Positions 18,386 to 37,846 of a stretch of DNA of 64,000 nucleotides are shown here, piece after piece. Position 1 is the stretch's first letter. Every line of letters begins with the position of its first letter. This stretch comes from an uncultured Gammaproteobacteria bacterium (GTDB taxonomy: Bacteria; Patescibacteriota; Patescibacteriia; 2-01-FULL-39-33): the NCBI GenBank assembly GCA_964558935.1, contig CAZLFP010000005.1, positions 20,667 to 84,666 of the forward strand, written 5' to 3'. A program made the position numbers and the translations under genes. A model generated the notes under the pieces. It did not search any database, was not told the DNA's origin, and saw only the letters and a program-made list of their open reading frames with translations.

Positions 18386-21300
18386 ATGAAGAGAAGAGGT
18401 GTTAACAATTTATGGAGGCCAATATTTGCCTTGGCAATTATTGGTGTGTTGTTATTCAGCTTGCCTGTTTTGGCCGAAGGAGGTGACGTTGATCCATATG
18501 GTTTAGGTCAAATTGAACAGCAAACGGTTTTTACAGACACCGGCCTGCTTGAGATCATTGCCATGTTGATTAATATCTTCATGGGTTTGTTGGGCATGAT
18601 TGCTGTCATTTTAATGATTTATGCCGGTTATTTATGGATGACGGCCGGGGGTAATCCCGAAAAGGTGGAAAAAGCCAGGATGATTATCCAAAGAGCTGTA
18701 ATTGGCTTAATTATTATTTTTTCGGCTTGGGCGATCGTGACTTTTGTCTTCTATTCCTTGGGCGTGGCAGTCGGTGATGGTGGCAGACAGTCTTGTAATG
18801 AGGAAAATCCTTGTCCGCCCGGTTACCAATGTGTTGATGGCAGATGCAACAGAATACCGGATTACAATTTTAGAACCAGAGAAGGTGAGTTAACTTATAT
18901 TTCCGGTGTGCGATCTCAATCTTTAGACTGGTCCAGATCAACCAGTCGTTATACTAGTTTGGTGCCTGTGCCGCCAACAGCTGATTTCCAGGTCAGAGGC
19001 TATGCTTTTAAACGTAATGAGATAATTGCGCTATTAGCTTTATATGGTGGTTTAGATGAACAGTCTTTAAATAACTTGGGTACTTATCCCATTACCATTT
19101 CTGAAACTCCCAGTACAGAAGTAGAAGAGTGGAGGGGCGTGGATTTGTCTGCTGTGCCAGTTGGTGAAAGCATCTATGTCAAGAATAGGGCTAATTCGCT
19201 TAATCCGGTAAGTGATTTACAGAGTTCTTTTGAATCTGATCTTTTAACTTTACGTGTGATAAATCAGCATTGTTTCAATGGTGTTTTAGATGGTGATGAA
19301 ACAGAAATCGATTGTGGTGGCAGCTGCGGAGCCTGTGCAGGTCAGAGTTGTCGCACTTTAGAGGATGATACTTGCAGTGATGCTAATTGCCGGTCAGGAG
19401 TGTGTGGACCGGATTGTGTTTGTGTAACTGAACCAACCATTGTTTTGGTCGTAGAGGATGACGGCGCTCCCGGTAATTACATTACCATCTATGGTCATCA
19501 TTTTGGTCATGAACAGGGTCAAGTTCATTTTTATACTACCGACGGAACTCTGTCAGCTACAGTAAATTGGACTGCTTTCCCGGACGAGTGTTCAAATACA
19601 TGGCAAACCGGTCATATCATTGCTGTTGTGCCGGCTTTATCTGCAGGTAATTACCAAATAGTGGTTGAGACCAGTGATGGTTTACTGAGTGAGGGTTATG
19701 CATTCGAAGTTAATACGGTTAACAGACCGGGTGTATGTACTATTCAAAACACCACTCTATCTCAACCCGGACAGTTGGTTTACGGTTTTGGTCAATCTGA
19801 AAATGAAGTTAAACTGATTGGCAACCAGTATCCGACCACCGTTGATGGTAATAATGAAGTACAGTGGTTATACCAAACATATAGTCAACAAACAGGTGGG
19901 TATGTAGATGATATCTACAACAGCCCAAGTAATACCTGGTCAACGGTTAATGAAGCCTTCGATGTAGTACCGGTTGGTCAGGATGGTCGGACAGCAGTTA
20001 GGGTATCTTTGGAACCAACCAAAAACAGTAATCCATATCCGTTCTTAATCTCTGCGGGTGGAGTTGGTGATCCATGTGGTGATCCTGAAGAACAGGTCTG
20101 TGCAGCAGCTGAAGTCTGTCAGCCTGGCTTGGTGTGCGATTTTGAGGATTGCACTTGTCAATTGGGTGAAGCTGAAACTTGCGGTAATGGACAAATTGAT
20201 CAAGGTGAGCAGTGCGATAGCTCAGCTGAAGCGATCTACAGTCAATTAGATGATGATAACAATCCGGATTGTTCTTTGTATGGAGATTATTTACCGGGTA
20301 GAAATGTTACCTGTCAGCCAAATTGTACAGTTAATGTCAATCCTTGTTTGCTAGCGTCTTTAGCCGGTAAGCCGTCTCAACACAATATTTATTCCTGGGC
20401 CTTTTTGAATATGTCTGGAACAGATATACCAAGGCCTGGTTTGTGCGGTAACAATATTTTAGATGATGGTGAAGATTGTGAAGATGTGGATGGCAGTCTT
20501 ACGTATCGAGGGGACAGAAGCACATGTCAGGCTTACGGCTTTAACAGTGGTACTTTGGCTTGTTCCAATTGTCAGTTAGACACTCAGAATTGTGAAGGAG
20601 CTTCCATTGGAGATAAGGCTTCTTCCCATGCCATTTACGGTTGGATTATCGGACACACGGGAGATTATAATCCAGGTGAGGAAGAGCCAACAATAGTTGA
20701 AGATTGTACTAGAGAAAGAACCTGCCGACCAGGCGCCAGATTGCCCAGTCCCACCCCTTGGAGTGAAGGCTGGACGTCAGCCACCAATATCAATGTTGAA
20801 AATCCACTGGCCTGTTTAGATGCCATTATTCTAGCTCGCTTTAGTTTGCCCATGGATGTGGATACCATTAATCCGGACAATATTAAAGTGTTAAAGAGAT
20901 TAGCGACTGGTGGTTGGCAAGAAGTTGCAGGTGATGTCGTTGCGGATTTGGATAGTGATAAGATGATTATCGGTAGTGATAACAGTGATATGGATAATGA
21001 TTATTTCAGATTCATTCCTACCACTAATTTAGAGCCTAATGCTTGGTACAAGGTGGTGGTCAGACAAACCGTTGAAAGTTTATCTGGCAGACAGATGAGA
21101 TTAAACCGAGTTGACCAAGCCAGAGTGAATGATCGCGAGTGTAATGTAAATGGCATTACAGATGCGGCTTACTGTTGGAATTTTCAAACTCGTAGTGCCG
21201 GGACATGTAATCCGGGCTGTGTGGAATGTTCACCGGATCCGCATACTATGTATTGGCAAGGTGCTACCACCAAGTATTTAGCTGATGTTGATAGTCAAGA

Positions 21301-24300
21301 TAATGTGTGTCTGTTGCTTAAAACCGGTAATACTGATTGGAATTGGTCTACAGATGATGAACCGACTGATGTTAAAGTTAGTTTGGGTTCGACCAATAAT
21401 TTTTATAACACAGGTACGGCCATTGATGAAAACATTTTTGACTCACCCGGCTATACCAAAATTATTACCCAATTGCGATCTTATACAGGCAAGGAAGATT
21501 TCTGCAGGGCTAGGGTGGATTTCACCAATCCGGTGGTGGTTGAAGATTCTTCCTGTTTGTATGGTAATATCCAAAGTCCTAGTCCTTGGATTAGTTCTGA
21601 TGATGCTTGCTTAAACGCTATGGTGTCAGCGCGTTTTAGTCGGGATATGACTGATGAGACTTTGAATTCTGGGAATATTTTAGTCTACCAATGTTCTGAT
21701 TTTGATTGTGATCTTACCGGCTTAACACCTATGACATACGGCCAAGTTGAAATTTTTCAATATTCTCATGTCTTGGATGACGTGACTGCCCAGCAGATTA
21801 TTGATCTTGGAGAACCGGAAGATGACGAGTTGCCTGAAGGTTTTTATATTCAACCTATAACCGGAGGCAATCCGGACGGCAACTTCAGATTTACACCCAA
21901 TACCTGGTACCGGGTGGTGATTAAAGGAGATACCGAAGGTGTCAGAGGTTCAACCGGCGGTAAGCTATTGAGAACCAATTACGCTCATGATGCTGACGGG
22001 GAAGTAAATGATTACACTTGGAAGTTTAAAACAGCCGGCAATGATTGCCAAGTAGACAGAGTGACAGTTACACCTCAGAAAAGGAGTATGTCAGCTGCTG
22101 GACAGAACCAGATTTACCATGCTTTGTCAGTGGCAGCCAATTGTAATTTGTTGAATTCAGCTTCTTTTAGCTGGGCTTGGAGATCTTTATATGAATTGGA
22201 TGATGACCGAGATGCGAATGATCCTGATTATGGCAATGCCAGTGATGTGGCTAGAGTTTGTCCTTACAACTCCAACGCTTTATGTGATTATACAGCTCTG
22301 ACTTCTGAGCAGAGCAGTTGGTTGACTCGGTCTAAAGTTCGAGTCTTCGGTATAGTTGACAGTGATGTTTATATTAAAGCACGAGCACTGGAGACCGGTC
22401 CTCAGTCAGCAGTTGCCGGCTACAATCCATTGGATCCGGAGATGGGTGATAAGTGGGATTACGGTACTTTGAGAATTGGTTACAGCGATCTTAAGGTCAT
22501 CGGTCATTCACCGGACAGGTTGACTTGCAAGATTCCAACTGCTGGAAATTATTCGGATTATGATATTCGAGTCAGATTTAACATTGACGTTGATACCGGT
22601 TCAATTAAACCCGGTGTTAATACTTTCTTGTATCAATGCGATCCAGAAAATAACGACTGTCATCCGGGGACTGAGCTTCAAACAGTTGATTTAACTCGTC
22701 TTAACACTACTTTGTATGCCAAAGAAATTGTCTTAAATCCTAACCAACAATTATCGCCTTACACCAGCAATACATATCGTTTGTTAATTCAAGGCGGTCC
22801 TAACACAGATCGTCCAATCGCTTTCAATGGCAAACGTCTCATGACTTTCAATTACAACAGTGCCGGCGGAGGTGCCGGTGAAGAGTGTGAACCTGATATT
22901 TTACCCTGGTCAGATTTTAGTGGTGTTTGCAATAATTGTATGTTAGACAGTAGTAAAAATTTATGCACTTATGCCAATGGCAGTTTTGCTGAGTGTCAGA
23001 ATAGTCTGCCCAATTCGTCTTTAGATTATTGTAATGATAAATGTTTTAACACCGGTAATGAGAATCGAGCTGCTTGTGGTGATGATTATGTCAATGTCGG
23101 TTATGAACAATGCGATGATGGCAACATTATTTCCGGTGATGGTTGCAGTAATGTTTGTTTATGGGAAGGAGCCGGTTCAGTAGCTGGCTCGGTCTGTGGT
23201 AATGGTGAACAAGAAGAGGGAGAAGCTTGTGATGATGGAGATCTGGATAATATTAATGAGTGTAACAATAATTGCTTGTTGACTGAAACTCCGGAACCGG
23301 GCTCTTTGCCGTACAGGCAGTGTCGTATTGAAGATAACTTTACAGTCTCACTGGGCGCTAATATTACTCCTCCCGACATTGGCGTGGCTCAACCGTTTGC
23401 TGGCACACCGCTCGACGATTACCGCAGTTATTATGTCAACAGTTCATTGTTTGGTAATAATAGGCATACTCCCTGGGGAGCTAAAATAATTGGCGGCCAG
23501 GTCATGATCGAGGCTCAAGGCAATGAAGGCAGTTCCGCCTTAATGACGGAAACTGAGGTTGACAGTGACCATTATCTTGTTAAAACCCAGATAATCGCCA
23601 ATGGTGCAATCACCAGTACAGATGATATTGGTTTGGCTTTTGGTTACCAAGATGAAAATAATTTTTGGTTGTTGAATTGGGCTGATGTTGGTTATCCTGG
23701 AGACAGAGCAGACACTTACCGCAGATTTAGATTAATCAACCAGTTTGGCCAAGTTGCAATTACTGCCACACCTTTCAATGTTGATGCACCTAATCATAAC
23801 TTTACTCTGTCGGTTGAAGTAATTAATTTTAGCGATGGAGCTCTTATCAAATGCTTTCGAGACAATACTCTACTGTTTAGTCATGAGGTTGACAGACGAG
23901 TGACCGGTCAGGTCGGGTTGTATGCCAGAGATCCGGATACTTCAGTCTTCTTTAATTTCTTAGATATCATTAATTTGGACTCGCAGTCCAACGACTGGTG
24001 TAATACTTTTGTCCAAACCCCAATTTGTGGCAATGGCACGGTTGAAACCGGCGAGGATTGTGATGACGGCAATACGGATTCCGGAGATGGCTGTAGCAGT
24101 AGATGCTTGCATGAGGGTTCTGTGAATGCCGTGTGTGGAGATGGCTTGGTTCAAACCGGCCAGGATGACAGTTATTCCTGGGTCTTTATCGTCGATAATA
24201 CGGAAGAAGCATGCGCTAGTGTTGAACCGGAAATTGTGATGGGACCATGTCCGAATGCTATTTGGAGAATTAAGACTAAGTTAGTTGATGAAAATGGCGT

Positions 24301-26350
24301 TTCAACCGGCATTGAGAGTTTGAATGTTAAAATTGAAGCTTCCAATCTGACTGTTACACACCAAGGTTGGTGGCCTAAGTTTAAGAATTGGTTTTGGGGT
24401 TTGTTTGGTCAATCCGCCGTGGCAGTCGATTATCCAAATCCTTTATTTGACTACACTTTTACTGCCACAGAATTAAGTGGTGATCTGCGCCAAACGCCTT
24501 CCATTTCTGGCAGCAGCGACGAGATATTGGGTTATCGTCAACAGGAAGAAGACGGTAATGTGTACTATGTGTTAAACATTATTCCGGGTCAGAATTGGAC
24601 CATAGATCGTCATTACCGTATTACCACCACAGATCAGGCTGACAATCAAACAGCAGTCGAAACTTATATTGAACCGGATATTTGTTTAATAGATGATCTG
24701 GAAGTCAATGTTTGGCCTAAAGGTCAGCTGGCTTTAGAAGATACATTTTTCTGCGCCGAAGCTTCGGGTTGTGATAGAGATCAGGATACTGCGACACCGG
24801 GTAACCAGCATATTTACCGAATTTGGGCCACCAATGGTAGACTGGGAGACAGAAAATCTTTCCTAAGATCTACTTCAACTTGGGAATTGAGTGTGATTCC
24901 TGATCTAGCTAATGTTTTAACTCGGCAAGATGCGAGTGCCACGACTTACCAAGGCGATCACTGGATTACGGCACAGGGTAGAACAGGAGGGCGAGCTTCC
25001 TTAAGAGTGACTGCCGGCAATCCTCAAACCAATGATGATGATTACACTCAGTCCATATATTTATTAGTCTTCCTATGTGACAATCCTTGGCCAGATCCAG
25101 ATAATTTCCCTTTCATTGACAGTGATAATAACTGTACCGGAGGTGACTGCGTTAACACCAATTTTTCCTTAGGCTATTGCCGTGATGCCGGCGAGCCTGG
25201 TTTTGCCGATGATCTGCCCAGATTGGATGAAAATGTCAGAGTTGTGGGTATGAATCCTGATTTAAATATTGTTAAGCAGATGTTCTTCCAAAAAATGGAT
25301 GATTCAGTTAATCCAGCAGTTGCCACTGGGGATACCATTGGCCTGAGAGTAATTAACAACAATAATTACTATAATCCAAGAACCTGGTTTGTCTCTCAGT
25401 TCAACCAAGATCCGGGTGCCATGTCGACCATAGATGGTTACCAATCCGTTGCTCAAGGTCCGACCAGCTATATTCACGCTGCAGATTTGGTGAATAATTG
25501 GAATACTGAAAAAAAGGCATACAGCACTAATTATGTTTTAACTTATACTCAGACCGGGGATGAAGACATTGTTAATATCTATAACCAGATGTTGAATAAT
25601 TTATTTTTCAATTACGGTATTCCAGAACAAGGTGGCTTGCCCACCATGGGTAGTTGTAAAGGCACTAGCTTTGCTTGTTGGTCTGATGCTGATTGCGACA
25701 GTCTGGGTCCCAACGCCTATTGTACTTCAGATAAAGCCAAGTTAACTCGAGATTTAAGAAGATTGGCAGATATGCAGGATATTGATTTAAGCTTGATGCA
25801 GTATAAGTCAGTTGAGCGTTGTTCCGGTTTGCCAACCAGATTGTGCGATAACCAAGATGATTGTGAGGGTTATGGTATGTGCGGCAATTTCTATCCATTG
25901 TTGCCCTCCGGCACTTATGTTCCAGCCAGAAGTATTTCAGTTTGGCCATCGTGGCAGGCAACTTTGGGTAATGCGCTGGGCAGGGCTTTGCCGGTTGACC
26001 CGATTAACCAATTCAGTGGCTGCAGTAGTCCGTATGAGGCGCAAACTTGTTGGGCTGAAAGTCTGAAGTCTTTTAATTGTTCAGCTGTTGCAACAGCTCT
26101 TGCTAATCAGTCAACCTATAATTACATTTATTTGTCTTCCAGACCGGATGAGACCACCTTGTCTAATGTTAGGTATTTATTGGCCAATAATGAGTTCTAT
26201 CCGAATTACAATACTTTGTGGCAGTCATTACCTCTAAACTTACGCAACTATACTGATATAGTGACTCATACTTTATTTACAGATTATGGTGCTTTCTTTA
26301 TTGATGACATCAATGGTACCTTTAACTGTGCCCGCGATTTAAGTTTATAA
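18386..26350 (+). CDS. giant secreted surface protein (2654 aa): pilin-like hairpin, at least 6 Myxococcus-type Cys-rich repeats, LamG/ConA-like domain
   Basis: N-terminal domain paralogous to the preceding gene (about 60% identity over about 100 aa). Repeats of form CGNGxxxxGExCDDGNxxxGDGCSxxC at several sites. LamG-like segment (DHYLVKTQI...FWLLNWADVGYPGDR...). Confidence 0.75.
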   Translation: MKRRGVNNLWRPIFALAIIGVLLFSLPVLAEGGDVDPYGLGQIEQQTVFTDTGLLEIIAMLINIFMGLLGMIAVILMIYAGYLWMTAGGNPEKVEKARMIIQRAVIGLIIIFSAWAIVTFVFYSLGVAVGDGGRQSCNEENPCPPGYQCVDGRCNRIPDYNFRTREGELTYISGVRSQSLDWSRSTSRYTSLVPVPPTADFQVRGYAFKRNEIIALLALYGGLDEQSLNNLGTYPITISETPSTEVEEWRGVDLSAVPVGESIYVKNRANSLNPVSDLQSSFESDLLTLRVINQHCFNGVLDGDETEIDCGGSCGACAGQSCRTLEDDTCSDANCRSGVCGPDCVCVTEPTIVLVVEDDGAPGNYITIYGHHFGHEQGQVHFYTTDGTLSATVNWTAFPDECSNTWQTGHIIAVVPALSAGNYQIVVETSDGLLSEGYAFEVNTVNRPGVCTIQNTTLSQPGQLVYGFGQSENEVKLIGNQYPTTVDGNNEVQWLYQTYSQQTGGYVDDIYNSPSNTWSTVNEAFDVVPVGQDGRTAVRVSLEPTKNSNPYPFLISAGGVGDPCGDPEEQVCAAAEVCQPGLVCDFEDCTCQLGEAETCGNGQIDQGEQCDSSAEAIYSQLDDDNNPDCSLYGDYLPGRNVTCQPNCTVNVNPCLLASLAGKPSQHNIYSWAFLNMSGTDIPRPGLCGNNILDDGEDCEDVDGSLTYRGDRSTCQAYGFNSGTLACSNCQLDTQNCEGASIGDKASSHAIYGWIIGHTGDYNPGEEEPTIVEDCTRERTCRPGARLPSPTPWSEGWTSATNINVENPLACLDAIILARFSLPMDVDTINPDNIKVLKRLATGGWQEVAGDVVADLDSDKMIIGSDNSDMDNDYFRFIPTTNLEPNAWYKVVVRQTVESLSGRQMRLNRVDQARVNDRECNVNGITDAAYCWNFQTRSAGTCNPGCVECSPDPHTMYWQGATTKYLADVDSQDNVCLLLKTGNTDWNWSTDDEPTDVKVSLGSTNNFYNTGTAIDENIFDSPGYTKIITQLRSYTGKEDFCRARVDFTNPVVVEDSSCLYGNIQSPSPWISSDDACLNAMVSARFSRDMTDETLNSGNILVYQCSDFDCDLTGLTPMTYGQVEIFQYSHVLDDVTAQQIIDLGEPEDDELPEGFYIQPITGGNPDGNFRFTPNTWYRVVIKGDTEGVRGSTGGKLLRTNYAHDADGEVNDYTWKFKTAGNDCQVDRVTVTPQKRSMSAAGQNQIYHALSVAANCNLLNSASFSWAWRSLYELDDDRDANDPDYGNASDVARVCPYNSNALCDYTALTSEQSSWLTRSKVRVFGIVDSDVYIKARALETGPQSAVAGYNPLDPEMGDKWDYGTLRIGYSDLKVIGHSPDRLTCKIPTAGNYSDYDIRVRFNIDVDTGSIKPGVNTFLYQCDPENNDCHPGTELQTVDLTRLNTTLYAKEIVLNPNQQLSPYTSNTYRLLIQGGPNTDRPIAFNGKRLMTFNYNSAGGGAGEECEPDILPWSDFSGVCNNCMLDSSKNLCTYANGSFAECQNSLPNSSLDYCNDKCFNTGNENRAACGDDYVNVGYEQCDDGNIISGDGCSNVCLWEGAGSVAGSVCGNGEQEEGEACDDGDLDNINECNNNCLLTETPEPGSLPYRQCRIEDNFTVSLGANITPPDIGVAQPFAGTPLDDYRSYYVNSSLFGNNRHTPWGAKIIGGQVMIEAQGNEGSSALMTETEVDSDHYLVKTQIIANGAITSTDDIGLAFGYQDENNFWLLNWADVGYPGDRADTYRRFRLINQFGQVAITATPFNVDAPNHNFTLSVEVINFSDGALIKCFRDNTLLFSHEVDRRVTGQVGLYARDPDTSVFFNFLDIINLDSQSNDWCNTFVQTPICGNGTVETGEDCDDGNTDSGDGCSSRCLHEGSVNAVCGDGLVQTGQDDSYSWVFIVDNTEEACASVEPEIVMGPCPNAIWRIKTKLVDENGVSTGIESLNVKIEASNLTVTHQGWWPKFKNWFWGLFGQSAVAVDYPNPLFDYTFTATELSGDLRQTPSISGSSDEILGYRQQEEDGNVYYVLNIIPGQNWTIDRHYRITTTDQADNQTAVETYIEPDICLIDDLEVNVWPKGQLALEDTFFCAEASGCDRDQDTATPGNQHIYRIWATNGRLGDRKSFLRSTSTWELSVIPDLANVLTRQDASATTYQGDHWITAQGRTGGRASLRVTAGNPQTNDDDYTQSIYLLVFLCDNPWPDPDNFPFIDSDNNCTGGDCVNTNFSLGYCRDAGEPGFADDLPRLDENVRVVGMNPDLNIVKQMFFQKMDDSVNPAVATGDTIGLRVINNNNYYNPRTWFVSQFNQDPGAMSTIDGYQSVAQGPTSYIHAADLVNNWNTEKKAYSTNYVLTYTQTGDEDIVNIYNQMLNNLFFNYGIPEQGGLPTMGSCKGTSFACWSDADCDSLGPNAYCTSDKAKLTRDLRRLADMQDIDLSLMQYKSVERCSGLPTRLCDNQDDCEGYGMCGNFYPLLPSGTYVPARSISVWPSWQATLGNALGRALPVDPINQFSGCSSPYEAQTCWAESLKSFNCSAVATALANQSTYNYIYLSSRPDETTLSNVRYLLANNEFYPNYNTLWQSLPLNLRNYTDIVTHTLFTDYGAFFIDDINGTFNCARDLSL

Positions 26351-33350: not shown

Positions 33351-33489
33351 TATGAATATATCTCTACTGGCCTTAATGTTTGTGGTAAGGACTTGAATTA
33401 GAATTTATCTAAATATTTCTGTTTCAAGTCTATTTTTTTCTGATATTTTTTGGCCATCTCAGGTGACTAACTATTTTCTCATTCATTAT

Positions 33490-35535
33490 ATGGAGACGCA
33501 AATCAAACAAGTACGCAAACGTGATGGCAGTATTATTGATTTTGAGCAAACTAAAATTACTCAGGCCATTTACAAGGCCTTACAAGCTGTTGGCAGAGAT
33601 GACCAGGAATTGGCGACAAAGTTATCCAATGAAGTCGTGCAGGTTATTAACAGCAAATTCCATCCCAGGTCAATTCCAGCCATTGAAGAAATTCAGGATG
33701 CGGTGGAAGAAACTCTGATTAAGGACGGACTGGTTAAAGCAGCTAAATCTTATATCATCTACCGGGAGCAACATGCTCAGTTGCGAGACATGAAGAAGTT
33801 GATTAATTCCCATGATATTATTGACGGCTATTTAAAACAGTTGGATTGGAGAGTTAAAGAAAATGCCAACATGGCCTATTCTCTGCAAGGCCTTAACAAC
33901 CATGTGGCTTCAGCTATTAGTTCCCATTATTGGTTAAATAAGATTTATCCGCCGGAAATCAGGGATGCTCATATAGATGGAGCATTGCATCTGCATGATT
34001 TGCAGATTTTAGCGGTCTATTGCTGTGGTTGGGATTTGCAGGCATTGCTCAGAGTTGGTTTTGGGGGAGTTGACGGCAAGATTCATTCCAAACCGGCCAA
34101 GCATTTTTCCGTGGCTTTGGGTCAGATTGTGAATTATTTCTATACCTTGCAAGGCGAAGCAGCCGGTGCTCAAGCTTTTGCCAACTTCGATACCTTGCTG
34201 GCTCCTTTTATTCGTCAGGATGGTTTAAATTACGAAAAGGTGAAACAAAATTTGCAAGCCTTTGTATTTAATATCAATGTACCGACCAGAGTCGGCTTTC
34301 AAACCCCTTTTACCAATTTAACTTTTGATTTAGCCTGTCCTTCCACCTTGGCCAATGAACCGGTGGTGATCGGAGGTATTCCCCAAAAAGAAACCTACAA
34401 AGAATTTCAGCCGGAAATGGATATGATTAACAAAGCTTTTGCGGAAGTCATGATGGCCGGCGATGCCAAGGGCAGGGTTTTTACCTTTCCCATTCCTACT
34501 TACAACATTTCCAAGGATTTTGATTGGAATAACAAGGTTTTGGATCCGGTTTGGGAAATGACTGCCAAGTACGGCATACCCTATTTTGCCAATTTCATCA
34601 ACAGCGATATGTCAGCGGATGACGCCAGATCCATGTGCTGTCGTCTGAGATTGGATAACCGGGAACTCAGAAAAAGAGGCGGCGGTTTGTTTGGAGCTAA
34701 TCCTTTGACCGGCTCGGTCGGTGTGGCGACTATTAATCTGCCCAGAATTGGTTATACATCCAAAACTCAGGAAGCTTTTTTTAATCGTTTGGGTCAGGTG
34801 ATGGATTTGGCTCGAGACAGTTTGAAATTGAAGAGAGAAATCCTGGAGAATTTTACCCAGCAGGGCTTGTATCCGTATTCCAAGTATTATCTCAGCGATA
34901 TTTATGAACGTTTTGGCCAGTACTGGAGAAATCATTTCAATACCATTGGGATTATCGGTATGAATGAAACTTTGTTGAACTACATGAACAGGCCATTAAG
35001 CACTCAAGAAGGTCAAGATTTTGCCGTACAAGTCATGGATTATATGTTAAAGAGATTGGCTAAGTACCAAGAAGAAGATGACCAGTTATATAATTTGGAA
35101 GCTACGCCGGCTGAAGGTGCAACTTACCGTTTTGCCAAGAAAGACAAAGAATTGTATCCAGATATTATTGTGGCCAACAATGAGGCCTACCAAGAGAGGG
35201 GAGCTGCTCCGTATTACACCAATTCCACTCATTTGCCGGTTAATTATTCCAATGACCTGTTTGAAGTTTTGGAAAAACAGGATCCTTTGCAAGTTAAATA
35301 CACCGGGGGTACTGTGGTGCATGGTTTCTTGGCTGAGAGGATGCCGGATATTGAAAGTACCAAAATGTTGGTTAAAAAGATTGCTGAGAATTTTCATTTA
35401 CCTTATTACACTCTAACTCCCACTTTCTCGATCTGTCCCAAGCATGGTTATTTGCCGGGAGAGCATGAATTCTGTCCTTATTGCGACGAGGAAATAGGAT
35501 ATGTGCGTCAGCAAGATGAAAAATTGCCATTATAA
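33490..35535 (+). CDS. nrdD: anaerobic ribonucleoside-triphosphate reductase (class III), large chain lacking the glycyl-radical segment
   Basis: N-terminal ATP-cone (VRKRDGSIIDFEQTKITQAIYKA); class III RNR core; C-terminal CPKHG...CPYC half of the Zn ribbon; ends at TAA 35533-35535. The ORF is open from 33463. Confidence 0.85.
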   Translation: METQIKQVRKRDGSIIDFEQTKITQAIYKALQAVGRDDQELATKLSNEVVQVINSKFHPRSIPAIEEIQDAVEETLIKDGLVKAAKSYIIYREQHAQLRDMKKLINSHDIIDGYLKQLDWRVKENANMAYSLQGLNNHVASAISSHYWLNKIYPPEIRDAHIDGALHLHDLQILAVYCCGWDLQALLRVGFGGVDGKIHSKPAKHFSVALGQIVNYFYTLQGEAAGAQAFANFDTLLAPFIRQDGLNYEKVKQNLQAFVFNINVPTRVGFQTPFTNLTFDLACPSTLANEPVVIGGIPQKETYKEFQPEMDMINKAFAEVMMAGDAKGRVFTFPIPTYNISKDFDWNNKVLDPVWEMTAKYGIPYFANFINSDMSADDARSMCCRLRLDNRELRKRGGGLFGANPLTGSVGVATINLPRIGYTSKTQEAFFNRLGQVMDLARDSLKLKREILENFTQQGLYPYSKYYLSDIYERFGQYWRNHFNTIGIIGMNETLLNYMNRPLSTQEGQDFAVQVMDYMLKRLAKYQEEDDQLYNLEATPAEGATYRFAKKDKELYPDIIVANNEAYQERGAAPYYTNSTHLPVNYSNDLFEVLEKQDPLQVKYTGGTVVHGFLAERMPDIESTKMLVKKIAENFHLPYYTLTPTFSICPKHGYLPGEHEFCPYCDEEIGYVRQQDEKLPL

Positions 35536-35550
35536 ATAAAAAAAATACAC

Positions 35551-35706
35551 ATGGAAGGTGAATTAAATTCTAAACGTCAGCGGTGTGAAGTTTGGTCTCG
35601 TGTGACTGGTTATTTAAGGCCGGTCAGCGGATATAATCCAGGCAAACAAGCTGAATATTACAGTCGTAAGAAATATGCAGTCAGTAAGGATTGCGGTTCA
35701 GTCTAA
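35551..35706 (+). CDS. 51-aa ORF encoding the NrdD glycyl-radical domain (RVTGY motif), in frame with nrdD after a TAA stop
   Basis: Translation MEGELNSKRQRCEVWSRVTGYLRPVSGYNPGKQAEYYSRKKYAVSKDCGSV matches the class III RNR C-terminal Gly-radical consensus. Same frame as nrdD, 15 nt downstream of its stop. Confidence 0.6.
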   Translation: MEGELNSKRQRCEVWSRVTGYLRPVSGYNPGKQAEYYSRKKYAVSKDCGSV

Positions 35707-35708
35707 AC

Positions 35709-36404
35709 ATGAAAATCGGCGGTTTACAACCAGTAACTCTATTGGATTATCCTCAAAAGGTGGCAGCAATTGTATTCACATCCGGATGCAATCTACGCTG
35801 CCCTTTTTGTTATAATCCGTCTTTGGTCTTGCCACAGCTGATCAAAAAAAGCAATTTACTGGCTGACACAGAGCTGTTTAAGTTCTTAAAGAAAAGACGT
35901 AATTTTTTGGACGGACTGGTTATTACCGGAGGAGAACCGACTGTTCAGACGGATCTGGTGGATTTTTGTCAGCGAGTTAAAAAACTGGGTTATGCCATTA
36001 AATTAGATACAAATGGATTTTCTCCTCAGATACTGGATGAATTAATCAAAAACCGGTTAATAGACTATATTGCCATGGATATAAAAGCGCCTTTATCCAG
36101 ATACGCTGAAGTTTGCGGAGTTAAAGTCAGGACAGACGACATTCAGTCCAGTTTGGAGATTATCAAACACTCACAATTGCCGTACGAGTTTAGAAGCACT
36201 CTAGTCAAGGGATTGCATCGCAAAGCAGACATTATTCGGATGGCCAAGCTAGCTCAAGATGCCCCCAAGTATTATCTGCAAAATTTTAATTATCAAAGCC
36301 GGTTGGTTAAACCAGATTTTGCCGGCAAGTTCTTTACCCATCAAGAGATGGAAAACATGCGTCAGATTGTGTTGAAGTTTGTTTCAGATTGCCAGATTCG
36401 CTAA
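35709..36404 (+). CDS. nrdG: anaerobic RNR activating protein (radical SAM)
   Basis: Radical-SAM cluster GCNLRCPFCYN typical of NrdG/PflA activases; immediately downstream of nrdD. Confidence 0.85.
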   Translation: MKIGGLQPVTLLDYPQKVAAIVFTSGCNLRCPFCYNPSLVLPQLIKKSNLLADTELFKFLKKRRNFLDGLVITGGEPTVQTDLVDFCQRVKKLGYAIKLDTNGFSPQILDELIKNRLIDYIAMDIKAPLSRYAEVCGVKVRTDDIQSSLEIIKHSQLPYEFRSTLVKGLHRKADIIRMAKLAQDAPKYYLQNFNYQSRLVKPDFAGKFFTHQEMENMRQIVLKFVSDCQIR

Positions 36405-36424: not shown

Positions 36425-36751
36425 ATGGAAGAAGACAAAAGTTTTGAAACCTTAATCAATCAGGAACAACCGCCGGTCGTTAAGACAGAAGCGGAGGATT
36501 TAAAAGCTTTACTGGAAGCTAATCTTAAGTATAGTCGGGCCATTTATGCTGATGTGCAAAAAGTTCGTCGGTATATATTCTGGCGCATGGTGATCAATAT
36601 CATCTGGTTGATTCTGGTTTTACTGCCAATCATTGTCGCCATTATTTATTTACCACCCGCTTTAATGGGTCTGTACCAAAGCTACCAGGAACTGCTAAAC
36701 GATTCACAGGGTTCATTGGATTTGATAAATCAGTTAAACCAATTTCAGTAA
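36425..36751 (+). CDS. hypothetical small membrane protein
   Basis: ORF with one hydrophobic helix (IIWLILVLLPIIVAIIYL). Its stop overlaps the prfB start (TAATG). Confidence 0.35.
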   Translation: MEEDKSFETLINQEQPPVVKTEAEDLKALLEANLKYSRAIYADVQKVRRYIFWRMVINIIWLILVLLPIIVAIIYLPPALMGLYQSYQELLNDSQGSLDLINQLNQFQ

Positions 36752-37846
36752 TGCAAGATTTAGTTAACAAACTTAAAGATTTAAACGCAAAAATCTCTAA
36801 GACCTGGAGGTTACTTTGACCTGTCTGCAAAGCAGAAAAAGATTACGGAGTTGGAAAAAGACATGTCCAAGCCAGGATTTTGGGAAGATAATGTTACAGC
36901 AGCTCAAGTCAGTCAGGAATATGAAAGCATTAAATCTCAAATTAATGAGTGGGAAGCTTTAAAGCAGGAAGCTAGTGATTTAATTGAATTGTCTGAAGAT
37001 GAATCTTTGACAGCTGAGATTGAAAAAAAATATCAGAAGTTAGAGCAGCAATATTCAAAATTGGAGTTTGCTGTTTTATTTTCCTCCAAATACGATAACC
37101 AGTCAGCCATCTTGTCTATTCATGCCGGTACCGGGGGTGTCGATGCCCAGGATTGGGCGGAAATATTATTTCGGATGTATAGTCGTTTTTGTGATAATCA
37201 CGCTTTTAAAATTAGAATCATTGACCAAACTCCAGGCAGTGAAGCCGGGATTAAAAGCGTCACTCTAGAGATAGTCGGACATTTGGCCTATGGTTGGTTG
37301 AAAAGTGAAAATGGAGTGCATCGGTTGGTTAGAATCTCTCCTTTTGACGCGGAAAAAATGAGGCACACTTCATTTGCTTTAGTCGAAGTTTTACCGAATT
37401 TAGAAGAAACGACCGAAGTGGATTTAAAAGCGGAAGATTTAAAGATTGAAGTCATGCGAGCCGGAGGGCATGGCGGTCAATCCGTAAATACCACAGACAG
37501 TGCTGTCAGAATTACTCACATACCTACTAAAATTTCTGTTAGATGCCAGAATGAGAGATCTCAACTCCAAAATAAAAAGACCGCTTTTAAGATCTTAACC
37601 GGCAAGTTATTAAATTATTATGGAGAGTTGGAAAATAAGGAGCTAAAAAGGATTAAGGGAGATTATATGCAGGCTGAATGGGGTAATCAAGCCAGGTCAT
37701 ATATTATGCAGCCTTACCAGTTAGTCAAAGACCATCGGACCGGTTATGAGACAAGTGAGATAGAGCAGGTGTTGGACGGCGATTTGGATCAGTTCATAGA
37801 AAGTTATTTAAGATATAAAGTTAAGAAAAAAAGCAAGATTGCTTAA
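36751..37846 (+). CDS. prfB: peptide chain release factor 2, requiring a programmed +1 frameshift at 36814-36820
   Basis: Frame 0 runs from ATG 36751 and ends at TGA 36817-19 in the context AGG AGG TTA CTT TGA C. The +1 frame continues from GAC 36818 into the 331-aa RF2 body (GGQ motif GGHGGQ, SPF present). Confidence 0.9.
36806..36820 (+). promoter_or_regulatory. RF2 autoregulatory +1 frameshift site (internal SD GGAGG plus CTT TGA C)
   Basis: Sequence ggaggttactttgac is seen directly. This motif is conserved in bacterial prfB genes. Confidence 0.85.

What the first reader, a model, noticed from the sequence alone, without database searches (positions are those of the whole stretch)
35533..35706. 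Anaerobic RNR glycyl-radical domain encoded in a separate in-frame ORF after a TAA stop
The nrdD ORF stops at TAA (35533-35535) after CPKHG...CPYC, which is only half of the usual C-terminal Zn ribbon. Fifteen nt later, in the same frame (ATA AAA AAA ATA CAC ATG), a 51-codon ORF encodes ...RQRCEVWSRVTGYLRPVSGYNPGKQAEYYSRKKY... This is the canonical class III RNR glycyl-radical loop (RVTGY) plus a further Cys, and it normally forms the contiguous C terminus of NrdD. Three explanations are possible. (a) A genuine two-chain NrdD with a detachable radical-bearing subunit, which would be expressed separately, as with the spare glycyl-radical proteins that rescue damaged pyruvate formate-lyase. (b) Stop-codon readthrough or recoding at UAA followed by an A8 run. 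(c) A sequencing or assembly error, or an incipient pseudogene. The Zn-ribbon cysteines appear to be divided between the two pieces.
Basis: partly seen in the sequence, partly recalled or inferred. Interest (0 to 1): 0.55.

Follow-up and report, generated by a model that had tools for sequence, protein, structure and literature searches.

The report
Anaerobic RNR with detached radical chain
In this ultra-small (Patescibacteria) bacterium, the oxygen-sensitive enzyme that makes DNA building blocks is encoded in two genes: the 51-residue stretch that carries its catalytic radical is a separate mini-protein, an arrangement kept in many related microbes and echoed by stand-alone copies in phages, and which I could not find described in the papers I could search.

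Summary
nrdD (33490-35535) ends at TAA just after its Zn ribbon. Fifteen nt later, in frame, a 51-codon ORF (35551-35706) encodes the glycyl-radical loop (RVTG20Y). nrdG starts 2 nt after that.

It is not an error or a pseudogene. All 120 closest NrdD homologues (66-100% identity) also lack the radical domain and stop after CPxCDEEIGY. About 30 species-level genomes of Patescibacteria and DPANN archaea have the same three-gene order.

Readthrough is not the general mechanism. In relatives the spacer runs from -20 to 355 nt and falls in all three frames (8/11/12), and several small ORFs have their own Shine-Dalgarno.

The small ORF is under strong purifying selection (dN/dS 0.09). The closest relative has its stop two codons further on.

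The best explanation is a true two-chain class III RNR, whose radical-bearing chain is translated separately and docks non-covalently.

The ribbon is complete (Cys/His type) on the large chain.

Two side findings:
- ~110-aa Zn-ribbon+radical-domain proteins unlinked to nrdD.
- Orphan copies in genuine phages, which suggest the module works in trans.

I found no description in the searchable literature. Function is untested, and the structure predictions were uninformative.

The parts
33490..35535 (+). nrdD large chain: 681 aa from ATG 33490 (an upstream GTG at 33463 would give 690 aa). It has the ATP-cone, the alpha/beta barrel and the Zn ribbon, but no glycyl-radical loop.
   Evidence: Pfam NRDD 603 bits and ATP-cone 75 bits. 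NCBIfam PRK08270 1035 bits against a 548 cut-off. Identical to database protein P0317, 681 aa. Aligns to T. maritima NrdD 4COI residues 100-610.
33508..33777 (+). ATP-cone (allosteric activity site) of the large chain.
   Evidence: Pfam PF03477, residues 16-105 of the 690-aa reading.
34636..34641 (+). Cys383-Cys384 (SMCCRL), the finger-loop cysteines expected to receive the radical.
   Evidence: Invariant C383 and C384 in alignments of split and one-chain NrdDs. Their role is inferred from the class III RNR literature (PMC9669993).
35434..35484 (+). Zn ribbon CPKH-x6-H-x2-CPYC, complete on the large chain.
   Evidence: C649, H652, C662 and C665 are invariant. T. maritima has a Cys/His Zn motif (PMC4493059).
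35485..35532 (+). Conserved C-terminal tail of the large chain (DEEIGYVRQQDEKLPL).
   Evidence: About 60 of the closest homologues end ...CDEEIGY[VI]REQ[EK]EKLP[LI] at the same position. dN/dS of the large C-terminus against L086 is 0.012.
35533..35535 (+). TAA stop of the large chain.
   Evidence: TAA is the main stop codon in this window (37 of 46 long ORFs). In the closest relative this codon is CAA, and a TAA lies two codons downstream.
35536..35550 (+). 15-nt A-rich spacer (ATAAAAAAAATACAC) without a Shine-Dalgarno.
   Evidence: Only 4 of 46 long ORFs in the window have an SD-like motif, so an AT-rich leader without SD is the norm here.
35551..35706 (+). Small chain (51 aa): the glycyl-radical loop and C-terminal tail of NrdD, as a separate ORF.
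   Evidence: Pfam NRDD positions 530-562. 51 of 51 homologues are 41-83 aa, with 13 invariant columns. 148 of the best 150 cluster representatives are under 240 aa. dN/dS is 0.086. The family profile aligns to T. maritima NrdD residues 616-645.
35608..35610 (+). Codon of Gly20 (RVTG*Y), the predicted radical site.
   Evidence: Invariant G20 in A1. It matches the RVxGY motif of solved NrdDs.
35709..36404 (+). nrdG activase (radical-SAM), starting 2 nt after the small ORF's stop.
   Evidence: NCBIfam TIGR02495 NrdG2, 216 bits against a 131 cut-off; Pfam Radical_SAM. nrdG lies no more than 142 nt downstream of the small ORF in 33 of 36 split loci.

Best explanation
This is a naturally split, two-chain class III (anaerobic) ribonucleotide reductase, in an operon nrdD-large / nrdD-small / nrdG.

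The 681-aa chain carries the ATP-cone, the catalytic barrel with the finger-loop cysteines, and a complete Cys/His Zn ribbon. The 51-aa chain carries only the strand-loop-tail that normally forms the C terminus of NrdD, including the radical glycine (Gly20).

Shown here:
- The split is at the linker between the Zn ribbon and the radical loop.
- The split is conserved in a large clade of Patescibacteria and in many DPANN archaea.
- The small ORF has its own conserved start and is under purifying selection.
- The activase gene follows directly.

Inferred:
- The small chain is translated from its own AUG, the SD-independent way that appears to be usual in this genome.
- It docks non-covalently into the barrel, where the C-terminal loop sits in one-chain enzymes.
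- NrdG with S-adenosylmethionine abstracts the H atom from Gly20, and the radical shuttles to Cys383/384 for catalysis.

More speculative: because O2 cleaves glycyl-radical proteins at the radical glycine, a detachable 6-kDa chain lets the cell replace only the damaged piece, and lets the cell (or a phage) set its dosage separately.
For: Anatomy:
- Pfam and NCBIfam profiles are covered contiguously by the two ORFs.
- PDB mapping puts the break between T. maritima NrdD residues 610 and 616.

Conservation of the split:
- 0 of the 120 best large-chain homologues (66-100% identity) have a radical loop, and all end shortly after CPxCDEEIGY.
- All 51 small-ORF homologues are 41-83 aa.
- About 30 GTDB species-level loci show large ORF, small ORF, then nrdG.
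- An NJ tree shows a uniformly split Patescibacteria clade of 15 species representatives.

Not an artefact:
- Two independent assemblies of a ~90%-identical relative (ENA and JGI) also have an in-frame stop, but two codons further on (CAA replaces the window's TAA).
- dN/dS is 0.086 for the small ORF at dS 0.86.

Independent initiation:
- Spacers run from -20 to 355 nt, with relative frames 0/1/2 = 8/11/12.
- AAGGAG or GGAGG lies before the start in L001, L005, L007, L035, L041, L062 and L069.
- This genome hardly uses SD (4 of 46 long ORFs) and uses TAA as its main stop.
- RF2 with its classic +1 frameshift is present, so the genetic code is standard.

Action in trans:
- 64 of 81 viral loci carry an NrdD-type radical-domain ORF with no NrdD body or NrdG within 3.5 kb.
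- The five whose neighbouring ORFs were scanned against PHROGs lie among bona fide phage genes.
Against: - No expression, proteomic or biochemical data exist; assembly of the two chains is inferred from homology only.
- Both structure predictions of the concatenated chains failed to place the small chain with confidence.
- In this genome and its closest relative the two ORFs happen to be in frame with a single stop, so a low level of readthrough product cannot be excluded.
- Only 64 kb of the genome was seen, so a second, one-chain nrdD elsewhere cannot be ruled out.
- The replaceable-after-O2 rationale is speculation.
- The literature search covers only open-access papers and bioRxiv.
Confidence: 0.85

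Rival explanations
1. Stop-codon readthrough or other recoding at UAA (35533) yields a single fused NrdD chain. The apparent small ORF would then be just the C terminus.
For: The two ORFs are in frame with one stop and a 15-nt A-rich spacer. The closest relative is also in frame (12-nt spacer). Six of about 31 split loci are in frame with a single stop.
Against: - Across relatives the frame is random (8/11/12) and spacers reach 355 nt, some with further stops and hairpins.
- The stop sits at different codons in the window and its closest relative.
- The small ORF's start Met is nearly invariant, and most homologues begin MSPI....
- Some small ORFs have their own SD.
- TAA is the commonest genuine stop here, and RF2 is present.
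- No known recoding signal was found, and Rfam gave no hit.
Confidence: 0.06
2. Sequencing or assembly error, or a recent pseudogene. The real or ancestral gene would be contiguous, and the break has no function.
For: An A8 homopolymer lies next to the stop. The source is a metagenome-assembled genome. The exact small ORF is not on record as a called gene.
Against: - All 120 nearest homologues from many assemblies and sources are truncated at the same place.
- Two independent assemblies of a relative keep a stop.
- dN/dS is 0.086 for the small ORF and 0.012 for the large C-terminus.
- The A-run is downstream of the stop, so an indel in it could not create the TAA.
Confidence: 0.02
3. The small protein is a true spare part (GrcA-like) for a separate one-chain NrdD encoded elsewhere in the genome. 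The truncated large chain next to it would be inactive or do something else.
For: - Free-standing NrdD-type radical-domain proteins unlinked to nrdD do exist (type Z).
- Only 64 kb of this genome was seen.
Against: - The large chain keeps every invariant catalytic residue and is under very strong purifying selection.
- The small gene sits exactly where the missing C terminus would be, followed by nrdG, in 33 of 36 split loci.
- No second NrdD or radical-loop motif exists in the window.
Confidence: 0.05

Closest known systems
One-chain class III RNR NrdD with NrdG (phage T4, E. coli, T. maritima 4COI/4U3E, Prevotella copri 8P23)
   Same: It has the same domains in the same order: ATP-cone, barrel, finger-loop Cys, Zn ribbon, RVxGY radical loop and C-terminal tail. 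The radical-SAM activase gene is adjacent. [quoted passage not shown]
   Different: Here the polypeptide is broken between the Zn ribbon and the radical loop, so the radical sits on a separate 51-aa chain. The large chain has a conserved 16-aa tail and the small chain an ~11-aa N-terminal extension. Both are absent from compact one-chain enzymes.
GrcA/YfiD of E. coli and Y06I of phage T4: autonomous glycyl-radical cofactors ('spare parts') for pyruvate formate-lyase
   Same: Each is a small stand-alone protein carrying a glycyl-radical loop that works in trans on a large barrel protein. There are also phage-encoded copies, as with the orphan NrdD-type ORFs in phages.
   Different: GrcA is homologous to the PFL radical domain, whereas the small ORF here matches NRDD. 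GrcA backs up an enzyme that has its own radical domain, whereas here the large chain has none, so the small chain is obligatory. A June 2026 review states that spare parts are known only for formate lyases and that it is undetermined whether others exist (PMC13450708).
Split class II RNR NrdJa/NrdJb (e.g. Pseudomonas)
   Same: An RNR catalytic subunit is encoded as two consecutive genes, with a C-terminal Zn-finger region involved (PMC9669993).
   Different: It belongs to a different class (B12-dependent). The break is elsewhere, and the second chain is large and carries folded domains, not the radical site.
Genes-in-pieces nrdA of Aeromonas phage Aeh1 (split by a homing endonuclease gene; Friedrich et al. 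2007, recalled from my own knowledge, not checked here)
   Same: An RNR large subunit is split into two polypeptides that reassemble into an active enzyme.
   Different: That is a class I enzyme, and the split was caused by a mobile endonuclease inserted between the halves. Here the spacer is 15 nt with no inserted gene.
Class I RNR alpha/beta
   Same: The radical is generated and stored on one polypeptide and used by another.
   Different: In class I the radical subunit is a ferritin-like metalloprotein and the radical travels by long-range transfer. Here the chain is a fragment of the catalytic subunit itself and should insert into the barrel.

Membership tests
Class III RNR (NrdD) | Sequence match to curated NrdD models above their cut-offs | tested here: met
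   Large chain: Pfam NRDD 603 bits (cut-off 26.2), NCBIfam PRK08270 1035 bits (548) and TIGR02487 533 bits (326). Small chain: Pfam NRDD 38.5 bits (cut-off 26.2).
Class III RNR (NrdD) | Radical glycine in an RVxGY loop | tested here: met
   RVTG20Y on the small chain. R17, V18, G20 and Y21 are invariant in 52 sequences. The loop aligns to the loop of 4COI and 8P23.
Class III RNR (NrdD) | Radical loop contiguous with the barrel on one polypeptide | tested here: not met
   TAA at 35533 and a separate ATG at 35551. The same is true of 120 of 120 nearest homologues.
Class III RNR (NrdD) | Finger-loop cysteine(s) and a Zn ribbon before the radical loop | tested here: met
   C383/C384 and C649, H652, C662, C665 are invariant. 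The Cys/His ribbon resembles that of T. maritima.
Class III RNR (NrdD) | Dedicated radical-SAM activase NrdG encoded alongside | tested here: met
   TIGR02495 NrdG2, 216 bits against a 131 cut-off, 2 nt downstream. Conserved in 33 of 36 split loci.
Class III RNR (NrdD) | Glycyl-radical formation and NTP reduction | not testable with these tools
   Needs anaerobic biochemistry and EPR.
[quoted passage not shown] | Small stand-alone protein consisting of a glycyl-radical loop | tested here: met
   51 aa. The family members are 41-83 aa.
[quoted passage not shown] | Homology to the PFL radical domain (Pfam Gly_radical PF01228) | tested here: not met
   NRDD was the only Pfam hit at E <= 0.1.
[quoted passage not shown] | Backs up a parent enzyme that has its own radical domain | tested here: not met
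   The adjacent NrdD lacks the loop, and there is no other NrdD or RVxGY loop in the window. The rest of the genome was not seen.
[quoted passage not shown] | Restores activity to the O2-cleaved enzyme | not testable with these tools
   Needs an experiment.
Programmed stop-codon readthrough / recoding | In-frame arrangement conserved among relatives | tested here: not met
   Relative frames are 8/11/12 and gaps run from -20 to 355 nt.
Programmed stop-codon readthrough / recoding | Recoding signal downstream of the stop | tested here: inconclusive
   Rfam found no known RNA element. The 15-nt spacer was not folded or tested further.
Split intein (protein trans-splicing) | Hint/intein halves flanking the break | tested here: not met
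   Only 16 aa follow the ribbon and ~11 aa precede the conserved strand. There was no Pfam hit other than NRDD and ATP-cone.

The most novel reading that the evidence does not exclude
The NrdD radical loop has become a free, exchangeable 'radical cartridge'. It is obligatory in Patescibacteria and DPANN (type S, as here). It also exists as an unlinked ~110-aa Zn-ribbon+loop protein in Desulfobacterales and others (type Z), and as orphan minigenes in phages. In this reading these mini-proteins are activated by NrdG and plug into loop-less or O2-cleaved NrdD bodies in trans, so that cells, and phages during infection, can renew or boost anaerobic dNTP synthesis by making only a 5-15 kDa piece. 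That would be the first obligate two-chain glycyl-radical enzyme and the first spare-part system outside pyruvate formate-lyase.
Probability: 0.4. Interest if true: 0.85.

Novelty: new variant of a known kind. Interest (0 to 1): 0.7.

Why it matters
In the structures and reviews consulted here, glycyl-radical enzymes carry the radical glycine on the C terminus of the catalytic chain itself. The one known exception is the PFL spare part GrcA/YfiD. A 2026 review lists it as an open question whether any other glycyl-radical enzyme has such a partner (PMC13450708).

A class III RNR whose radical loop is always a separate 45-60-aa protein would have several consequences:
- It would show that the loop can assemble with the barrel in trans as the normal state.
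- It would give experimenters a natural peptide-sized substrate for NrdG, and a handle on how the radical domain leaves and re-enters the barrel.
- It would affect annotation. ORFs this short can be missed by gene callers; the window's own small ORF is not on record as a called gene. The NrdD of such a genome then looks as if it lacks its radical site, and a 144-aa fragment in the virus ANMV-1 was read as a complete reductase.
- It would suggest a cheap repair or dosage strategy for O2-exposed, genome-reduced symbionts and their phages.

Tried and rejected
1. Structure prediction of the two chains as one concatenated sequence.
- With 57 large-chain homologues, the barrel was fine (mean pLDDT 77) but residues 674-732 scored below 35.
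- With 41 small-chain and 6 large-chain homologues, mean pLDDT was 60.5, the barrel was poor and the small chain scored 50-62.
- Neither model says anything about docking.
- Better alignments could not be made. MAFFT misplaced the short peptides once 11 or more large-chain rows were present.
- No fold search was run on these models.

3. An Rfam scan of the whole window gave no hits, so no known riboswitch or recoding element is present.

4. The window has no NrdR box, no nrdR gene and no second NrdD or radical loop.

5. The exact-sequence look-up of the window's small ORF found no called gene on record. Its source annotation could not be inspected.

6. Ten literature searches found no description of a split NrdD or an NrdD-type spare part. 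Subscription journals are not covered.

7. Considered and rejected:
- A split intein: the tails are too short and there is no Hint domain.
- Transcriptional slippage at the A8 run: it lies downstream of the stop and cannot remove it.
- An alternative genetic code: TAA ends 37 of 46 long ORFs, and RF2 is present with its UGA frameshift site.

Full report
**1. The observation.**
- The window reads ...TTC TGT CCT TAT TGC GAC GAG GAA ATA GGA TAT GTG CGT CAG CAA GAT GAA AAA TTG CCA TTA TAA ATA AAA AAA ATA CAC ATG GAA GGT....
- The nrdD ORF ends at TAA 35533-35535. Fifteen nt later, in the same frame, ATG 35551 opens a 51-codon ORF that ends at 35706.
- A radical-SAM activase gene starts at 35709, 2 nt after that stop.
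- Pfam NRDD covers profile positions 1-532 of 562 in the large ORF and 530-562 in the small ORF. NCBIfam PRK08270 covers 2-653 and 649-683 of 684. The two ORFs together therefore make exactly one NrdD.
- The activase scores 216 bits on TIGR02495 (NrdG2; cut-off 131).
- The likely true start of nrdD is ATG 33490, which gives 681 aa. That is how the identical database protein P0317 is called.

**2. Where the break is.**
- Against solved structures, the large chain aligns to T. maritima NrdD residues 100-610 and to T4 NrdD up to residue 566. The small-chain family profile aligns to T. maritima residues 616-645.
- In T. maritima NrdD a Zn-ribbon domain lies between the last barrel strand and the C-terminal loop that holds the radical glycine, and its Zn motif is CxxxHx6CxxC (PMC4493059).
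- In the window, C649, H652, C662 and C665 are invariant and H659 nearly so, in alignments that include one-chain enzymes. The ribbon is therefore complete on the large chain.
- The break falls in the linker between the ribbon and the radical loop.
Cys12 of the small chain is Thr in many one-chain NrdDs.

**3. Artefact or pseudogene? No.**
- A search with the 51-aa ORF returned 51 proteins, all 41-83 aa and 55-90% identical. Thirteen columns are invariant (E13, R17, V18, G20, Y21, L22, R23, P24, V25, N29, K32, Q33, E35) and the start Met is nearly invariant; most begin MSPI....
- A profile search of 1.84 billion cluster representatives gave 2727 hits at E <= 1e-10. Of the best 150, 148 are under 240 aa and one is 711 aa. 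Three of the 13 inspected are contig-edge fragments of one-chain genes.
- A search with the large chain gave 120 best hits at 66-100% identity (Patescibacteria, Buchananbacteria, Falkowbacteria). None has a radical loop, and all stop shortly after CPxCDEEIGY. About 60 share the tail ...IGY[VI]REQ[EK]EKLP[LI].
- A ~90%-identical relative, assembled independently in an ENA and a JGI sample, has CAA where the window has TAA. Its own TAA lies two codons further on, within a 6-nt insertion. The stop moves, but the split stays.
- dN/dS between the window and that relative is 0.086 for the small ORF (dS 0.86), 0.012 for the large C terminus and 0.13 for nrdG.

**4. Readthrough or separate initiation?**
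- Among GTDB species representatives and metagenome contigs, about 31 distinct split loci could be measured.
- The distance from the large-chain stop to the small-chain start ranges from -20 to 355 nt. The relative frame is 0, 1 or 2 in 8, 11 and 12 loci.
- Several in-frame spacers contain further stops.
- L001 has two hairpins and AAGGAG 7 nt before the ATG. L005 has GGAGGTG before a GTG start. Several DPANN loci have GGAGG.
- The window genome itself barely uses Shine-Dalgarno sequences: 4 of 46 long ORFs, about what chance would give. The A-rich leader of the small ORF looks like that of its other genes.
- TAA ends 37 of 46 long ORFs, and prfB has the classic CTT TGA C +1 frameshift site, so the genetic code is standard.
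- Readthrough therefore cannot be the family's mechanism and is not needed here. Because this genome is in frame with a single stop, a trace of fused product cannot be excluded.

**5. Distribution and history.**
- In an NJ tree of large chains (648 columns), 15 Patescibacteria species representatives including the window form a uniformly split clade.
- DPANN archaea and other Patescibacteria are mixed. Some one-chain forms there (L014, L064) keep a long linker (CDEEIGLKKSAKAKSLERKRTRCEVYSRV) that looks like an unbroken version of the two tails.
- Clostridia and Planctomycetes are all one-chain with a short linker.
- A Chromatiales locus (L049) is split by a 20-nt overlap next to a one-chain sister (L079). 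This may be an independent split or a frameshift error.
- The linker thus seems to be a permissive site that has been broken (or rejoined) more than once.
- nrdG follows the small ORF within 142 nt in 33 of 36 split loci, just as it follows one-chain nrdD in 35 of 39.

**6. Evidence that the module can act in trans (outside the window).**

(a) Type Z proteins.
- These are 100-166 aa and carry their own four-Cys ribbon (CHDC...KCxxC) plus the radical loop.
- They form a family of 608 clusters, mostly named 'hypothetical protein'.
- In Desulfobacterales (L083, L075, L022, L039, L088, L090) and a Nealsonbacteria genome (L061, between Fur and hemerythrin genes) they sit alone, with no nrdD or nrdG within 3.5-10 kb.

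(b) Viral contigs.
- A scan found 41 small and 17 mid-sized radical-domain ORFs.
- Only 17 of 81 viral loci have an NrdD body, and 7 an NrdG, within 3.5 kb on either strand.
- Neighbours are genuine phage genes: tail tube, tape measure, major head, scaffold, primase, helicase and methyltransferases.
- The published archaeal virus ANMV-1 carries a 144-aa type Z protein that was taken for a whole oxygen-sensitive reductase.
- This mirrors T4 Y06I, the phage homologue of the PFL spare part.
- Caveat: an NrdD body might lie further away in those phage genomes.

**7. Mechanism proposed.**
- Shown: two ORFs, their domain content, their conservation and their operon context.
- Inferred: the small chain is translated from its own AUG and inserts its Gly20 loop into the barrel of the large chain. 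NrdG and SAM then make the glycyl radical, which is passed to Cys383/384.
- In P. copri NrdD the whole C-terminal radical domain is highly mobile and disorders in the dATP-inhibited state (PMC11226230). A non-covalent version is therefore plausible and might even dissociate on inhibition.
- Speculative: O2 cleaves glycyl-radical proteins at the glycine, so a detachable chain limits the loss to 51 residues. This may suit genome-reduced symbionts that meet oxygen, and phages.

**8. Comparison with known systems.**
- It is a class III RNR in every tested respect except that the radical loop is not contiguous with the barrel.
- It works like GrcA/YfiD in having the radical loop in trans, but it is not a member of that family. 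It matches NRDD rather than the PFL radical domain, and it is obligatory rather than a backup.
- Split class II NrdJa/NrdJb is a precedent for two-gene RNR catalytic subunits, but the break there is elsewhere (PMC9669993).
- A June 2026 review states that spare-part proteins are known only for formate lyases and that it is undetermined whether others exist (PMC13450708).
- Ten literature searches found no description of a split NrdD.

**9. What failed.** Rfam, NrdR-box and second-NrdD searches were negative.

**10. Verdict.**
- It is a new variant of a known kind. Its interest is fairly high because it is conserved, apparently undescribed, experimentally tractable, and bears on a stated open question.

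Noticed in passing
L083 3108-3608; L075; L022; L039; L061 3315-3623; L088 10001-10345; L090 10001-10354: Free-standing 'type Z' proteins of 100-166 aa, with their own four-Cys Zn ribbon plus an NrdD-type glycyl-radical loop. No nrdD or nrdG lies within 3.5-10 kb. In L061 the gene sits between Fur and hemerythrin genes. The family has 608 clusters, mostly annotated as hypothetical. They are candidates for a true spare part for class III RNR.
   Followed up: partly
L092-L171 (IMG/VR), e.g. L116 3180-3617, L130 3258-3656, L117 3456-3641, L149 3501-3662; L172 10001-10156; L173 3680-4114 (ANMV-1, KP703175.1): Phages and an archaeal virus carry orphan NrdD-type radical-domain minigenes. 64 of 81 viral loci have no NrdD body or NrdG within 3.5 kb. 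The minigenes lie among head, tail and replication genes. ANMV-1's 144-aa copy was published as a complete anaerobic reductase.
   Followed up: partly
window 36751-37846: prfB (RF2) has the classic programmed +1 frameshift: ATG 36751 ... GGAGG TTA CTT TGA C (CTT TGA at 36815-36820), continuing into ORF 36851-37846.
   Followed up: partly
window, whole: The genome almost lacks Shine-Dalgarno motifs before long ORFs (4 of 46). Even so, it keeps an SD-like GGAGG at the prfB frameshift site. TAA is the stop of 37 of 46 long ORFs, and GC content is 40%.
   Followed up: partly
P0360, P0365, P0368-P0372 (about 1003 aa); also L036, L041, L063, L070, L081: There are large insertions in NrdD at conserved sites. 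P0365 has a 322-aa insert after window residue 271 (VGFQ|T) that starts CLSGDTEILT and ends ...FITGN before Thr. These are intein hallmarks, but Pfam finds no intein domain. Other loci have inserts near residues 280/281 and 392/393 (690-aa numbering) and about 620.
   Followed up: partly
L028, L015, L017, L040, L004 (25 nt before the small-ORF ATG); L001 3877-4000: Short tandem repeats lie directly upstream of the small ORF in several Patescibacteria: TCCCTAA x3, ATTCGTA x2.5, AATTGAAA repeats and TCGTCAAT repeats. The 124-nt spacer of L001 has two hairpins, and near-identical genomes have spacers of 124, 93 and 59 nt. The meaning is unknown.
   Followed up: no
small chains of L016, L029, L063, L057, L080, P0002, P0045; window 35689-35691 (single Cys47): Some small chains end in a Cys pair (DCGC, CGCKN, QCPTC, TCSC, TCGC). 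This recalls the redox-shuttling C-terminal Cys pairs of class I and II RNRs. The feature is not conserved across the family.
   Followed up: no
L025 3354-3500: In a Micrarchaeota locus the large chain ends at TGA and 47 sense codons follow in frame before the small ORF's ATG. This could be a case of readthrough, a recent split or an error.
   Followed up: no
L080 3259-3626: A Parcubacteria locus is intermediate. Its nrdD large chain has its own ribbon, followed by a 161-nt gap and then an ORF of about 67-110 aa carrying KCxxC plus the radical loop.
   Followed up: no
window 35551-35706: No gene with exactly this product is on record in the gene-position collection, while the large chain is on record (P0317). 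The small ORF may not be annotated in the source assembly.
   Followed up: partly
window 18386-26350: A very long ORF (2654 aa) follows a 1036-aa ORF. It was not examined.
   Followed up: no
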